DNA from: a virus
Taxonomy: Duplodnaviria; Caudoviricetes
Direction: 5' to 3' (one strand)
Length of the DNA: 64,000 nt
Virus record (IMG/VR): IMGVR_UViG_3300020151_001495
Coordinates: 32,001-96,000 of that record
How positions within the stretch are numbered: position 1 is the first letter of the stretch; the number at the start of each line of letters is the position of its first letter. The position numbers were made by a program, and so were the translations under genes. The notes under the pieces are model-generated. The model had not been told where the DNA came from. It was given only the letters and a program-made list of their open reading frames with translations, and ran no database searches. Below, piece by piece: positions 34,432 to 40,919 of this stretch.

Positions 34432-34590
34432 TTGCAGGCTCGCCACCAATTTTGATTACGAGAAAATTGGAAACTCGGCGGGAGTATCCTCCACATCCGC
34501 ACCAGTCGGCATATTTTATGTCCATCCGACGAGGACTATTTGGGTCATATTGACTCCACCAGGGTATTTTTTAAGTCATTCCAAGACTTC
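34432..34590 (-). ncRNA. Multi-pseudoknot structured RNA (resembles cyanophage manA/wcaG motifs)
   Basis: Three consecutive stem/A-rich/pseudoknot modules, each followed by TGG(T/C)G. Confidence 0.6.
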
Positions 34591-36995: not shown

Positions 36996-37069
36996 AGCCC
37001 AAGGTCGGACTTGAACCGACGACCTACGGTTTACAAAACCGTTGCTCTATCCAGCTGAGCTACTCAGGC
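36996..37069 (-). tRNA. tRNA-Thr(TGT)
   Basis: ACGGT-TT-TGT-AA-ACCGT anticodon arm. Confidence 0.95.
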
Positions 37070-37332
37070 ATATCTTCGGGATTCTCCAAGTCTACTGGAA
37101 ATAAACATGGATGGCATTCTTCATCAATTAAATAGAAGGATGTTCTGTATAATTCTTCAGGAGTATATTCAGGATTGTTTGATGCATCTATCTGAATATA
37201 TGGATCCTGTTGCATTATATGAGGAATCTCTTCAAATGTAAAAGGAACATTGTTAATGAAATACATTTCCACAATTTCATTGTTGTAGAAACAATAGTTA
37301 GATGAAATTTTGTATTTCATTATAGTATCCAC
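37060..37332 (-). CDS. Conserved cyanophage hypothetical protein
   Basis: MYFINNVPFTFEE..YLIDEECHPCLFPVDLENPEDMP. Confidence 0.75.
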   Translation of the reverse strand: MDTIMKYKISSNYCFYNNEIVEMYFINNVPFTFEEIPHIMQQDPYIQIDASNNPEYTPEELYRTSFYLIDEECHPCLFPVDLENPEDMPE

Positions 37333-37354
37333 CGATACACATATTTATCGGTAA

Positions 37355-37472
37355 CTCCCCCGATAGGACTTGAACCTATAACCCATCGGTTAAGGAAAAA
37401 ACTGGAATCGAACCAGAACTAAAGGAACCTTCTTTTCCACAGCCGATTGCTCTGCCATTGAGCTACAGGGGA
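37355..37472 (-). tRNA. tRNA-Asn(GTT) interrupted in the anticodon by a 46-nt insert (37438-37393)
   Basis: Intact acceptor (TCCCCTG/CGGGGGA, discriminator G), D-arm, anticodon stem ATCGG/CCGAT and T-arm; loop reads CT-GT[insert]T-AA. Confidence 0.88.
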
Positions 37473-37479
37473 ATAAATA
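37473..37479 (+). promoter_or_regulatory. Late-type promoter for the HNH gene
   Basis: ATAAATA abutting the 5' end of tRNA-Asn on the opposite strand, 30 nt before the HNH ATG. Confidence 0.6.
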
Positions 37480-37509
37480 GTTGGTATTAATTTAAAAAGT
37501 TATACCAAC

Positions 37510-37839
37510 ATGAATAAAAAAGAAACTAGAACTTATGCTGATAGAAAAGCAAAAAATCCTAACTGGGCTAAAAAGATGACAGAAAGAGTATCTGCAACTA
37601 GAAGAAAAAATGTATCTTTAATTAAAGAAGAAGCTGGAGGAAAATGCTGTATGTGTGGATACAACAAATGCACGGCAGCACTAGAGTTTCATCATTTAGA
37701 CCCAGATGCTAAAGAAGGAGGAATTATTGGTTCCACTGCATCTTTAGCAAAGCAAAGAGAAGAAGCAAAAAAATGCATTCTTGTATGTGCAAATTGTCAT
37801 CGTGAAATTCACTCTGACTTATCTATGTATCATAGATAA
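37510..37839 (+). CDS. Free-standing HNH endonuclease
   Basis: CCMCGY..ALEFHH.DP..KCILVCANCHREIH; antisense to the surrounding tRNA operon. Confidence 0.9.
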   Translation: MNKKETRTYADRKAKNPNWAKKMTERVSATRRKNVSLIKEEAGGKCCMCGYNKCTAALEFHHLDPDAKEGGIIGSTASLAKQREEAKKCILVCANCHREIHSDLSMYHR

Positions 37840-37845
37840 AAATTA

Positions 37846-37925
37846 TGGTAGGTGGGGATAACTTTACCTATGTTATCCCTCTTTACTTCTCCAAGCCTTG
37901 GCCTAAAGGGGTATTTGGCACCTAC
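37846..37925 (-). ncRNA. Putative structured RNA with terminal 7-bp stem and 3' ACCA
   Basis: GTAGGTG/CACCTAC closing stem; internal arms CCAAG/CTTGG and GGGATAAC/GTTATCCC. Confidence 0.5.
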
Positions 37926-38056
37926 GATTTTAAGGGCAAGGATGTCCACCTACGATAAAATCTACGATGTGGCCGAGGGGATCCTTTGTTTAATACAACG
38001 TTCCTTGTTGTACCCTTTACTACAGCATTCTGGTTTATCTTTCCAGTGCCACTAGC

Positions 38057-38128
38057 ACCTCTGTCTAGGAATCGAACCCAGTTTCCAAGTGCATTGTCTG
38101 CCTGTCCTTACCAATAGACTACCAGAGG
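38057..38128 (-). ncRNA. tRNA-like RNA with aberrant anticodon arm
   Basis: CCTCTG/CAGAGG acceptor, TAGTCTATTGGTAAGGAC D-arm, CTGGG-TTCGATT-CCTAG T-arm; only GCA-GACAA-TGC where the anticodon arm should be. Confidence 0.7.
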
Positions 38129-38133
38129 ATGAA

Positions 38134-38298
38134 CTAATTTTGTCCCAGAAGATATTCTACTGTAGTTGCAACATCATTCATTGCATCACGAAGATTTGGT
38201 CGTTGACCAGATTCTTGTTTAATAATTGGTCTGGAATTGTCAGTTAGAGTCCACCTCCACTGATTCATATCCTTACAATACCAAAGTTTAATGTTCAT
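38134..38298 (-). CDS. Conserved small cyanophage protein (54 aa)
   Basis: MNIKLWYCKDMNQWRWTLTD..QESGQRPNLRDAMNDVATTVEYL. Confidence 0.75.
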   Translation of the reverse strand: MNIKLWYCKDMNQWRWTLTDNSRPIIKQESGQRPNLRDAMNDVATTVEYLLGQN

Positions 38299-38443
38299 GT
38301 TTGGTTTTTTCTAATTTAATCCAATTAAGAAGAGCATTTACTTCTGCTCTCTTTGCTTCAGTGAAGTCATTACCTTTACTGAAGAGATAAAAATCCAATG
38401 CTTCAATAGCAAGTTTTCTATCTTGTTGAGAAATAAGTGACAT
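38288..38443 (-). CDS. Conserved small cyanophage protein (51 aa)
   Basis: MSLISQQDRKLAIEALDFY..NALLNWIKLE. Confidence 0.7.
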   Translation of the reverse strand: MSLISQQDRKLAIEALDFYLFSKGNDFTEAKRAEVNALLNWIKLEKTKHEH

Positions 38444-38465
38444 AATAACCTCAAAATATGAGGGA

Positions 38466-38536
38466 AGCGAATGACGGGGATCGAACCCGTGACACCAACT
38501 TGGAAGGATGGGATGTTACCGCTACACCACATTCGC
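38466..38536 (-). tRNA. tRNA-Gly(TCC)
   Basis: GCGAATG/CATTCGC acceptor, loop CT-TCC-AA. Confidence 0.95.
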
Positions 38537-38589
38537 AGTGACTCCTCTGTTTGAGCATCGTTGATAGGCTTGAGGAGTATTAATTGTAT

Positions 38590-38823
38590 TTATTTAAATG
38601 TAATTACATCGTCAGAAATACCAGTACCTACATATCCATTATAATATGGATTTTTTAAAGAATAGTCTTTCTGTGCTTCAGAAGCTAATAATCCTTCTAC
38701 CGTACCTAATGCAGATGCAATTTGAGAAAGAGTCCAGATATCTTCATGCATAGCACCTATTTCAAGTGCAGAACGAAGTGTTTCTCTAGCCTTTTCAATT
38801 TGATACTTAACTGAATCTCCCAT
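38590..38823 (-). CDS. Hypothetical protein
   Basis: MGDSVKYQIEKARETLR..SDDVITF; the ORF-track start lies inside tRNA-Ala. Confidence 0.65.
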   Translation of the reverse strand: MGDSVKYQIEKARETLRSALEIGAMHEDIWTLSQIASALGTVEGLLASEAQKDYSLKNPYYNGYVGTGISDDVITFK

Positions 38824-40848: not shown

Positions 40849-40919
40849 TAGGTGAAGAAGGAATCGAACCTCCGTAATTCAGTTAATCGCTGACCGCTCT
40901 GCCACTGAGCTATCCACCA
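40849..40919 (-). tRNA. Atypical tRNA with ATT anticodon (Asn-like) and G33
   Basis: 71-nt cloverleaf; loop CG-ATT-AA; U1:U72 and G27:A43 mismatches; has its own early promoter. Confidence 0.65.

What the first reader, a model, noticed from the sequence alone, without database searches (positions are those of the whole stretch)
37355..37472. tRNA-Asn split in its anticodon by a 46-nt miniature tRNA: candidate intron removed by RNase P and RNase Z
Seen: the minus strand reads TCCCCTG-TA-GCTCAATGGCAGAGC-A-ATCGG-CT-GT [GGAAAAGAAGGTTCCTTTAGTTCTGGTTCGATTCCAGTTTTTTCCT] T-AA-CCGAT-GGGTT-ATAGG-TTCAAGT-CCTAT-CGGGGGA-G. Every arm of tRNA-Asn(GTT) is intact. The insert (37438-37393) folds as a tRNA minihelix: GGAAAAGA/TTTTTTCC (8 bp) stacked on CTGG-TTCGATT-CCAG (4 bp, canonical T-loop) gives 12 bp, plus a small AAGG/CCTT hairpin and one discriminator-like T. 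Established: RNase P cuts 5' of the first acceptor-stem base and recognises the 12-bp acceptor/T helix; RNase Z cuts 3' of the discriminator. Inference: these two cuts would remove exactly 46 nt and leave exons ending ..CUGU-3'OH and 5'P-UAACC.., which an ATP-dependent RNA ligase could join to restore the GUU anticodon. The insert is far too short for a group I or II intron and shows no obvious bulge-helix-bulge. It may represent a new class of tRNA-mimic intron spliced by host tRNA maturation nucleases. No ligase gene is visible in this window.
Basis: partly seen in the sequence, partly recalled or inferred. Interest (0 to 1): 0.92.

Follow-up and report, generated by a model that had tools for sequence, protein, structure and literature searches.

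The report
tRNA-shaped mini-intron in cyanophage tRNA-Asn
A cyanophage asparagine tRNA gene is split inside its anticodon by a clean 46-base insert shaped like the top half of a tRNA, which travels with a neighbouring DNA-cutting "homing" gene. This is a small example of a barely described kind of phage tRNA intron that may be cut out by ordinary tRNA-trimming enzymes and resealed by an RNA ligase, though no one has shown that.

Summary
On the minus strand, 37472-37355 is a canonical tRNA-Asn(GUU) with 46 extra bases (37438-37393) between anticodon bases 35 and 36.

- **Real and clean:** three other assemblies carry the same insert. Four viral contigs carry the uninterrupted gene, identical to the joined exons at 72 of 72 bases.
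- **tRNA-like shape:** 7-bp acceptor-like stem, T arm with a canonical T loop, one discriminator base. This arose once in 2 million shuffles.
- **Same design elsewhere:** it recurs with unrelated sequence in tRNA-Arg and tRNA-Gln of other phages.
- **Mobile cassette:** the adjacent HNH gene (37510-37839) belongs to a family tied to this tRNA-Asn site. The family sits inside group I introns in bacteria, inside larger tRNA-shaped inserts in phages, and free-standing here.
- **Ligases:** a complete relative encodes Rnl1 plus a kinase, and an Rnl5-like ligase. A relative with an uninterrupted tRNA-Asn also has Rnl1.

Best reading: a mobile, minimal form of the "enigmatic" tRNA-like introns noted in Lak megaphages. 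Excision by RNase P and RNase Z followed by ligation fits the exact ends but is untested. No expression data could be obtained. This scan has found the same class before on other DNA, mostly in jumbo phages.

The parts
37439..37472 (-). Exon 1 of tRNA-Asn(GUU): tRNA positions 1-35 (acceptor 5' strand, D arm, anticodon stem 5' strand, loop bases 32-35)
   Evidence: Joined to exon 2 it is 72/72 identical to uninterrupted tRNA-Asn genes in L007, L008, L017 and L023.
37393..37438 (-). 46-nt tRNA-shaped insert (mini-intron candidate). Acceptor-like 5' strand 37438-37432, linker 37431-37418, T stem 5' strand 37417-37413, T loop 37412-37406, T stem 3' strand 37405-37401, acceptor-like 3' strand 37400-37394, discriminator-like base 37393.
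   Evidence: Identical in L002, L003 and L004.
37355..37392 (-). Exon 2 of tRNA-Asn(GUU): positions 36-73. No encoded CCA.
   Evidence: None of the phage's other tRNA genes encodes CCA (0 of 10).
37473..37509 (+). Spacer between the tRNA 5' end and the HNH start. It holds a T4-type late-promoter-like AATAAATA at 37473-37480 and a hairpin at 37480-37509 whose 3' arm abuts the ATG.
   Evidence: Sequence. Hairpin -10 kcal/mol, z = -3.7. The promoter reading is inference from the known late-promoter consensus of T4-like cyanophages.
37510..37839 (+). Free-standing HNH endonuclease gene (109 aa), divergent from the tRNA. It belongs to a family tied to the anticodon loop of tRNA-Asn genes.
   Evidence: PHROG HNH families at E 4e-23. 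CxxC, HH and CANCHxxxH motifs are visible. Context of homologs.
37355..37845 (.). The mobile cassette as a whole: interrupted tRNA-Asn, spacer and HNH gene. In HNH-less relatives a different, uninterrupted tRNA-Asn occupies this place.
   Evidence: Alignment with 'empty' relatives L129, L132-L135, L144 and L147. Identity to G001 is 96-100% inside the cassette and 86-88% outside.

Best explanation
The 46 bases are a mobile, tRNA-shaped mini-intron. They are the minimal form of the 'enigmatic' tRNA-like introns of phage tRNAs, and they sit between anticodon bases 35 and 36 of an otherwise intact tRNA-Asn(GUU) in a T4-like cyanophage.

**At the DNA level.** The insert occupies the homing site of the neighbouring HNH endonuclease family. 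It is inherited with that gene as one cassette, an arrangement like the known 'collaborative homing' pairs.

**At the RNA level (inferred).** The precursor folds as a tRNA inside a tRNA. Host RNase P cuts 5' of base +1 of the inner acceptor stem. Host RNase Z cuts after the inner discriminator. The two exons, still held together by the outer tRNA body, end in 3'-OH and 5'-phosphate. An ATP-dependent RNA ligase (the phage Rnl1-type or Rnl5-type enzyme) then seals them and restores the GUU anticodon.

**Shown:** the clean insertion, the shape, its recurrence, the link to the HNH gene, and ligase genes in the lineage.

**Inferred:** both cuts, the ligation, and the DNA target of the HNH.
For: 1. 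**Clean insertion.** The joined exons are 72/72 identical to uninterrupted genes. For the tRNA-Arg case, the L146 exons are 76/76 identical to the intact genes in L145 and L147. There is no target-site duplication.
2. **Shape conserved, sequence not.** In 12 nested elements from 10 phage genomes, 139 of 144 stem positions pair. Each element's own acceptor strands pair at 6.67 of 7 positions, against 3.26 when partners are swapped. The 5' strands share only 2.2 of 7 bases, G53-C61 is invariant, and the T loops fit TTCRANY.
3. **The ends track tRNA ends.** All 12 inserts end right after the inner discriminator or NCCA. In the 7 flush elements the insert starts at inner base +1.
4. **CCA rule.** The inner 3' tail is NCCA only in genomes whose ordinary tRNA genes encode CCA (3 of 3), and a single N in CCA-less genomes (7 of 7), including this one. 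A 3' splice site made by the same 3'-end machinery that trims the phage's own tRNAs would give this pattern.
5. **Cleavage context.** The bases at -2 and -1 are G and U, and U(-1) cannot pair with the U discriminator. Both are compatible with the RNase P determinants reviewed in PMC10731613. RNase Z of a cyanobacterium has been characterised (cited in PMC7479834).
6. **Ligation capacity.** The complete relative G001 has an Rnl1-type ligase with the T4 Rnl1 C-terminal domain next to a P-loop kinase, and a ligase like Naegleria gruberi Rnl (PDB 5cot, E 6e-97). T4 Rnl1 is known to reseal tRNAs broken in the anticodon loop (PMC3400036).
7. **HNH link.**
   - 52 of the 54 closest phage homologs (the other two loci are cut short by a contig end) lie within about 45 nt of a tRNA-Asn gene.
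   - In L217, L218, L219 and L223 the HNH gene lies inside 616-747-nt tRNA-shaped inserts at the same 35/36 site.
   - In bacteria, 54 of 80 homolog loci have the gene inside a split tRNA. 29 are called Asn outright, and the sampled Thr(tgt) calls read as Asn at 35/36. Five of seven checked are Rfam group I introns.
8. **Conversion-tract signature.** Identity to G001 is 100% over the tRNA, insert and spacer. It falls from 99% to 96% across the HNH gene and is 86-88% in the flanks.
Against:
- The perfect conservation of the insert can be explained by recent cassette transfer rather than by selection.
- Only four near-identical copies of this particular insert exist. Scans of the viral and metagenome collections found no diverged copies, so there is no covariation within the family itself.
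- The T stem has a U-U mismatch at 49-65, the acceptor stem is almost all A-U or G-U after two G-C pairs, and there is no D-loop partner for the T loop. It would be a weak RNase P substrate.
- Longer relatives (type B: L121, L277/Lak-B6, three in G006) carry a hairpin of about 28 nt 5' of the mini-tRNA. RNase P would leave this on exon 1, so at least that subclass needs another activity.
- CCA-ending relatives need a cut after CCA, which most RNase Z enzymes avoid.
- The ligase gene is not specific to intron carriers. G005, a close relative with an uninterrupted tRNA-Asn, also has Rnl1.
- The phage could do without this tRNA, since the host supplies tRNA-Asn.
Confidence: 0.45

Rival explanations
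1. The insert is not spliced. It simply disrupts the HNH recognition site, giving immunity to the endonuclease. The tRNA-Asn gene is then dead, or yields two halves plus a small tRNA-like RNA. The tRNA-like shape reflects origin (a tRNA gene fragment captured during break repair) or a role of the released minihelix, not splicing.
For: - The high conservation is explained by recent cassette transfer.
- Host tRNA-Asn makes the gene dispensable.
- The same cluster shows decaying tRNAs: a tRNA-His(ATG)-like gene degraded in this window but intact in G001, and an odd tRNA-Asn-like gene at 40849-40919.
- Most HNH-linked tRNA-Asn genes are uninterrupted, so the endonuclease does not need an intron.
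Against: - Random disruption does not explain why unrelated sequences in Asn, Arg, Gln, Thr and Pro tRNAs all keep an acceptor/T-arm minihelix whose 3' end coincides with the exon junction.
- It does not explain why the tail follows the genome's CCA habit.
- It does not explain why the exons stay fully canonical and identical to working alleles.
- In bacteria the same site holds self-splicing introns, which suggests that occupants of this site are normally removed from the RNA.
Confidence: 0.3
2. The insert is spliced, but not by RNase P and RNase Z. A dedicated, probably phage-encoded, endonuclease recognises the tRNA-like fold and leaves 5'-OH and 2',3'-cyclic phosphate ends. The kinase next to Rnl1 heals those ends and Rnl1 seals them, as in T4 tRNA repair.
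For: - In G001 the Rnl1 gene overlaps a 166-aa P-loop kinase gene (AAA_33, E 5e-21), which is needed only if 5'-OH ends arise.
- Type B relatives have a conserved 5' hairpin that calls for an activity other than RNase P.
- T4 Pnkp plus Rnl1 is an established heal-and-seal route (PMC3400036).
Against: - No candidate nuclease was identified.
- No splicing-endonuclease (EndA) homolog is present in G000 or G001.
- No phosphatase partner was looked for.
- The flush ends and the CCA rule are explained more simply by the tRNA-end enzymes.
- The kinase-ligase pair may serve only in repair against host anticodon nucleases.
Confidence: 0.15
3. It is a tRNA-His(GUG) with an intron at the canonical 37/38 position (ARAGORN's call), removed by an archaeal or eukaryal-type bulge-helix-bulge endonuclease.
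For: ARAGORN in intron mode gives this reading.
Against: - The exons are 72/72 identical to tRNA-Asn(GTT) genes.
- The discriminator is G, and there is no G-1:C73 pair.
- The fold shows a near-continuous helix with no pair of 3-nt bulges.
- No EndA homolog is present in the phage, and bacteria lack this enzyme.
Confidence: 0.01

Closest known systems
'Enigmatic' tRNA introns of Lak megaphages (Devoto et al. 2019, PMC6784885), also noted in jumbo phages in 2026 (PMC13037316)
   Same: - An insert in the anticodon loop of a phage tRNA that itself looks like a tRNA.
- Identical copies across samples, with intron-less alleles also present.
- No self-splicing signature.
- The Lak-B6 record holds a homolog of this HNH (53% identity) about 120 nt from its interrupted tRNA, which I read as tRNA-Asn split at 35/36.
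   Different: - The Lak-type inserts seen here are 81-141 nt, with a 5' hairpin of about 28 nt before the mini-tRNA. This one is 46 nt and flush at both ends.
- The host phage is a roughly 170-kb T4-like cyanophage using the standard genetic code, not a megaphage with a recoded stop codon.
- The papers give no mechanism and, in the passages I read, do not mention the HNH link.
[quoted passage not shown]
   Same: The same tRNA, the same insertion site and the same HNH family (41-56% identity). Rfam group I hits of 72-92 bits surround the homologs.
   Different: - The 46-nt insert has no ribozyme core and no terminal G, and it is about ten times too short to self-splice.
- The preprint's table is held only as an image, so I could not confirm that it lists the Asn site.
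Collaborative (trans) homing pairs: F-CphI with the psbA intron of cyanophage S-PM2 (PMC6083498), and T4 MobE with the nrdB intron (PMC2790892)
   Same: - A free-standing endonuclease gene next to a gene whose ORF-less intron sits at a site that the endonuclease family targets elsewhere.
- The cassette is far more conserved than its flanks.
- S-PM2 is among the nearest cultured relatives of this phage.
   Different: - The partners in those pairs are self-splicing group I introns in protein-coding genes.
- Here the partner is a 46-nt tRNA-shaped insert in a tRNA.
- Cleavage by this HNH is untested.
T4 tRNA repair (Pnkp plus Rnl1) after anticodon-nuclease attack (PMC3400036)
   Same: An Rnl1-type ligase that joins tRNA halves broken in the anticodon loop. 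The lineage has Rnl1 next to a kinase.
   Different: That system is repair of damage, not removal of an insert. The ligase also occurs in a relative without the insert.
Archaeal and eukaryal protein-spliced tRNA introns (BHB motif, EndA, ligase; PMC4090602)
   Same: A short intron without an ORF in the anticodon loop, presumed to be removed by proteins and a ligase.
   Different: No BHB motif, a non-canonical position, no EndA gene, and a bacterial virus as host.

Membership tests
tRNA-shaped ('enigmatic', Lak-type) introns of phage tRNAs | Insert lies in the anticodon loop of an otherwise intact phage tRNA gene, and an uninterrupted allele exists | tested here: met
   (72/72 identity to uninterrupted genes).
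tRNA-shaped ('enigmatic', Lak-type) introns of phage tRNAs | Insert itself folds like a tRNA or its acceptor/T-arm half, with its 3' end at the exon junction | tested here: met
   All 12 nested elements compared, including the Lak-B6 one, share this.
tRNA-shaped ('enigmatic', Lak-type) introns of phage tRNAs | Removed from the RNA to give a working tRNA | not testable with these tools
Also not shown in the literature read.
Group I intron | Conserved catalytic core (Rfam RF00028) | tested here: not met
   No hit at gathering score or at E up to 1 over 37000-38600. The same search finds true group I introns in relatives.
Group I intron | U before the 5' splice site and G as the last intron base | tested here: not met
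   U precedes the insert, but its last base is U.
BHB (archaeal/eukaryal) tRNA intron | Two 3-nt bulges separated by a 4-bp helix at the splice sites, and an EndA-type endonuclease | tested here: not met
   The fold shows a near-continuous helix. PF01974 is absent from G000 and from the complete G001, while the archaeal controls are positive.
tRNA-Asn-site HNH homing endonuclease family | HNH catalytic motif and homology to members carried inside introns at tRNA-Asn 35/36 | tested here: met
tRNA-Asn-site HNH homing endonuclease family | Cuts intron-less tRNA-Asn DNA at or near the insertion site | not testable with these tools
   Inferred only, from context and from the conversion-tract pattern.
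Collaborative homing pair | Free-standing endonuclease gene adjacent to a gene with an ORF-less insert at the family's target site; the two are present or absent together | tested here: met
   Interrupted tRNA and HNH occur together in the window, L002, L003 and L004. Syntenic relatives L129, L132-L135, L144 and L147 lack both.
RNase P / RNase Z substrate (tRNA or minihelix) | Coaxial acceptor plus T stem of about 12 bp, T loop, and unpaired -1 and 73 positions | tested here: inconclusive
   7 + 5 positions, 11 of them paired; T loop TTCGATT; U(-1) opposite U73. The stem is weak and there is no D loop, so cleavage must be assayed.

The most novel reading that the evidence does not exclude
Bacterial viruses have a protein-dependent tRNA splicing pathway. 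The intron is a miniature tRNA, so the host's own tRNA-end enzymes (RNase P and RNase Z) excise it exactly, and a phage RNA ligase reseals the anticodon loop. These introns spread by the same HNH homing endonucleases that mobilise group I introns at the identical tRNA-Asn site. That would make the tRNA shape a second, independent solution to the problem of being a harmless occupant of a homing site. It would also give phage Rnl1 and Rnl5-type ligases a routine job beyond repair.
Probability: 0.4. Interest if true: 0.9.

Novelty: new variant of a known kind. Interest (0 to 1): 0.74.

Why it matters
Bacteria and their viruses are thought to remove tRNA introns only by self-splicing. A 46-base insert cannot splice itself, yet it sits cleanly in a canonical tRNA, and its ends coincide with the cut sites of the two universal tRNA-end nucleases.

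If it is spliced, this is a third route of tRNA splicing and the first enzyme-dependent one in the bacterial world. It would also give phage RNA ligases a routine substrate.

This instance is the smallest and cleanest form, which makes it a good test substrate:
- both ends are flush with the mini-tRNA;
- there is no ORF and no extra hairpin;
- the phage uses the standard genetic code and belongs to a well-studied group;
- an exact intron-less allele is known.

The HNH family links three states of one homing site: group I intron, ORF-bearing tRNA-shaped intron, and free-standing gene plus mini-intron. That makes the origin of mobile introns directly comparable across these states.

Tried and rejected
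- **Diverged copies of this insert:**
  - A 21-mer scan of viral contigs returned only the three known relatives.
  - A gapped junction pattern in metagenome contigs gave two chance hits that are not tRNAs.
  - The phage collection gave only a 33-nt match to exon 2.
- **Ligase co-occurrence as a test:** not informative. The records are fragments, and an insert-free relative has Rnl1. RtcB is absent from G000 and G001.
- **Known RNA families:** nothing in or around the insert. The ORF-bearing phage inserts also gave no group I hit. The 617-nt insert at the same site in L224 ends like a group I intron but gave no Rfam hit, so I leave it unclassified.
- **tRNA-His reading:** rejected.
- **Assembly artefact:** rejected.
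sterically implausible and not predicted.
- **Fold stability of the insert alone:** not significant. Significance comes from the motif-and-register test.
- **One script rejected:** It was redone from coordinates.
- **ARAGORN labels:** its intron calls are often mislabelled (Asn called His, Ser, Arg or Thr). I re-read each junction from the anticodon loop.
- **ARAGORN tRNA-Pyl with a 1089-nt intron in G001:** not examined, probably false.

Full report
**What is there.**
- On the minus strand, 37472-37355 is a complete tRNA cloverleaf with 46 extra bases in the anticodon loop.
- ARAGORN sees it only in intron mode and calls it tRNA-His(GTG) with an intron at 37/38. Rfam's tRNA model misses it.
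- Deleting 37438-37393 gives a sequence that ARAGORN calls tRNA-Asn(GTT). That sequence is identical at 72 of 72 positions to uninterrupted genes on four other viral contigs: L007, L008, L017 and L023. These contigs have no HNH gene nearby.
- So the gene is tRNA-Asn(GUU), the insertion is clean, and it has no target duplication.
- One T leaves 34/35 and 35/36 both formally possible.
- The record is a 116-kb fragment of a T4-like cyanophage. It carries psbA and psbD, is about 70% identical to Synechococcus phages S-PM2 and S-CAM1, and is 63% complete.

**Real, and more than chance.**
- The same insert lies in three other assemblies. One of them, G001, is a complete 172-kb genome with terminal repeats. 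It is only about 80-86% identical to this phage over most aligned stretches (range 76-91%).
- The insert has 7 of 7 acceptor-like pairs between its first seven bases and the seven before its last base.
- A T hairpin with loop TTCGATT and a G-C closing pair lies directly 5' of that 3' strand. One base follows as a tail.
- This whole arrangement arose once in two million shuffles.
- Folding energy by itself is unremarkable.

**The same design elsewhere.**
- In L146, a relative's tRNA-Arg(UCU) carries a 44-nt insert of unrelated sequence. Its exons are identical to the intact genes in L145 and L147, and it lies unambiguously between bases 35 and 36. It has a 7-position acceptor stem, a 5-bp T stem, a canonical T loop and one tail base.
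- L247 has a 45-nt version in tRNA-Gln that ends in GCCA.
- Longer forms, here called type B, consist of a 5' hairpin of about 28 nt plus a mini-tRNA that is flush with the 3' junction. They occur in L121, in L277 (the same locus as in Prevotella phage Lak-B6) and three times in G006.
- Over 12 such elements, 139 of 144 stem positions pair. Own acceptor strands pair at 6.67 of 7 positions, against 3.26 with swapped partners. The strands share barely two of seven bases.
- Every insert ends right after the inner discriminator or after NCCA.
- The NCCA tail occurs only in the three genomes whose ordinary tRNA genes encode CCA. The single-base tail occurs in the seven genomes that do not, including this one with 0 of 10.
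- By genomes this split has a chance of about 1 in 120.

**The neighbour explains the place.**
- ORF 37510-37839, divergent from the tRNA and 37 nt away, is a complete small HNH endonuclease.
- Its closest phage homologs lie within about 45 nt of a tRNA-Asn(GTT) gene in 52 of 54 loci. The other two loci are cut short by a contig end. The cultured cyanophages S-WAM2 and S-H38 have this arrangement.
- In L217, L218, L219 and L223 the homolog lies inside a 616-747-nt insert at the same site. That insert begins with an acceptor-like 5' strand and a D-arm-like hairpin, and ends with a T arm, an acceptor 3' strand and N or NCCA. Compensatory changes between copies keep the stems. Rfam sees no group I core in these inserts.
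- In bacterial genomes, 54 of 80 homolog loci have the gene inside a split tRNA. ARAGORN of these Asn. The sampled Thr(tgt) calls also read as Asn at 35/36.
- There the surrounding intron is a true group I intron in five of seven loci checked.
- So one endonuclease family serves one site with three kinds of occupant.

**The cassette behaves as a unit.**
- Syntenic relatives without the HNH gene have a different, uninterrupted tRNA-Asn in the same place.
- Against G001, the tRNA, insert and spacer are 100% identical. The HNH gene falls from 99% to 96% identity, and both flanks are 86-88% identical.
- This is the pattern expected of gene conversion started at the tRNA.
- It also means the perfect conservation of the insert is not evidence of selection on it.
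- The spacer has a late-promoter-like octamer and a hairpin that ends at the HNH start codon. T4 endonuclease genes are known for this arrangement; that comparison is from my own knowledge.

**How it may be removed.**
- RNase P measures the acceptor plus T-stem stack and contacts the T loop. U at -1 is favourable, and pairing between -1 and 73 is unfavourable (PMC10731613). Here -1 is U opposite a U discriminator.
- RNase Z cuts after the discriminator of CCA-less precursors. Some RNase Z enzymes cut after CCA (PMC7479834).
- The two cuts would release exactly 46 nt and leave ends that Rnl1-type or nick-sealing ligases join directly.
- T4 Rnl1 reseals tRNAs broken in the anticodon loop (PMC3400036).
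- G001 encodes an Rnl1-type ligase next to a P-loop kinase, and a close homolog of the Naegleria gruberi ligase. It has no RtcB and no EndA.
- The window's own record lacks these genes but is incomplete.
- This is permissive evidence only, because an insert-free relative has Rnl1 too.
- The 5' hairpin of type B relatives cannot be removed by RNase P, so the model is at best complete only for the flush forms such as this one.

**Standing.**
- Phage tRNA introns that 'may encode a tRNA' were reported as enigmatic in Lak phages and mentioned again in 2026. No mechanism or nuclease link is given in what I read.
- Earlier notes of this scan describe the same class on other DNA, mostly in jumbo phages, and also the tRNA-Asn HNH family. 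I treated these as leads and re-derived each point used here.
- New in this instance:
  - the minimal flush form in an ordinary-sized cyanophage;
  - the exact intron-less allele;
  - the conversion-tract profile;
  - the CCA rule.
- I could obtain no expression data.

Noticed in passing
L154:2696-2967, L156:2692-2974, L180:2688-2968, L201:2172-2454 (also L157-L160, L165, L184, L197): In related cyanophage contigs the tRNA just upstream of the same small gene (homolog of window 37060-37332) is a tRNA-Leu(UAA) split by an intron of about 200 nt. Rfam scores it as a true group I intron (58-68 bits). I do not know of a report of the cyanobacterial tRNA-Leu intron in cyanophages.
   Followed up: partly
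window 38040-38130 (-): Degraded copy of a tRNA that ARAGORN calls tRNA-His(ATG) in G001 (99237-99308) and in many relatives. Substitutions in this window break the acceptor and T stems. The A34 anticodon, in a tRNA of the queuosine family, recurs in many phage clusters.
   Followed up: partly
window 40849-40919 (-): ARAGORN's tRNA-Asn(ATT) (Rfam 45.8 bits) has G in place of the universal U33, and A34. Its loop differs at two bases from the tRNA-Asn loop that the HNH family is tied to, and the stem change is compensated. It could be an endonuclease-escape variant or a pseudogene.
   Followed up: no
window 38541-38577 (-); L146:2319-2355: An abiF RNA motif (Rfam RF03085, 47-50 bits) sits directly upstream of tRNA-Gly(UCC), both in this phage and in a relative.
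   Followed up: no
window 37846-38056: Non-coding stretch between the HNH cassette and the tRNA-His-like gene. It is well conserved among relatives, with repeated short motifs (alignment). Possibly a structured RNA; another first-reader note flags it.
   Followed up: no
L132:3270-3730: A different HNH-type gene is inserted next to tRNA-Thr in one relative, together with a replaced tRNA-Thr. The tRNA cluster is a hotspot for homing-endonuclease cassettes.
   Followed up: no
L217:2983-3590 (same record as L117): The intron-borne HNH frame continues through two in-frame TAG codons into a zinc-ribbon and helix-turn-helix domain. This suggests a phage that reads TAG as an amino acid. The window's HNH lacks this DNA-binding tail.
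   Followed up: no
L264:1089-1234 (-): A tRNA-Asn(GTT) with a 71-nt insert at the same 35/36 site that has three hairpins and no T-loop motif. This is a different, unclassified kind of small insert.
   Followed up: no
L224:165-858 and L224:993-1276; L223:248-359: L224 holds a tRNA-Asn with a 617-nt insert at 35/36 that ends like a group I intron but has no Rfam hit, followed by a phage-borne tmRNA (61.5 bits). L223 holds a RAGATH-33 RNA (135 bits).
   Followed up: no
window 34432-34538 (-); L146:1325-1530: wcaG RNA motif in the window and manA RNA motif in a relative. Both are known cyanophage-associated motifs.
   Followed up: no
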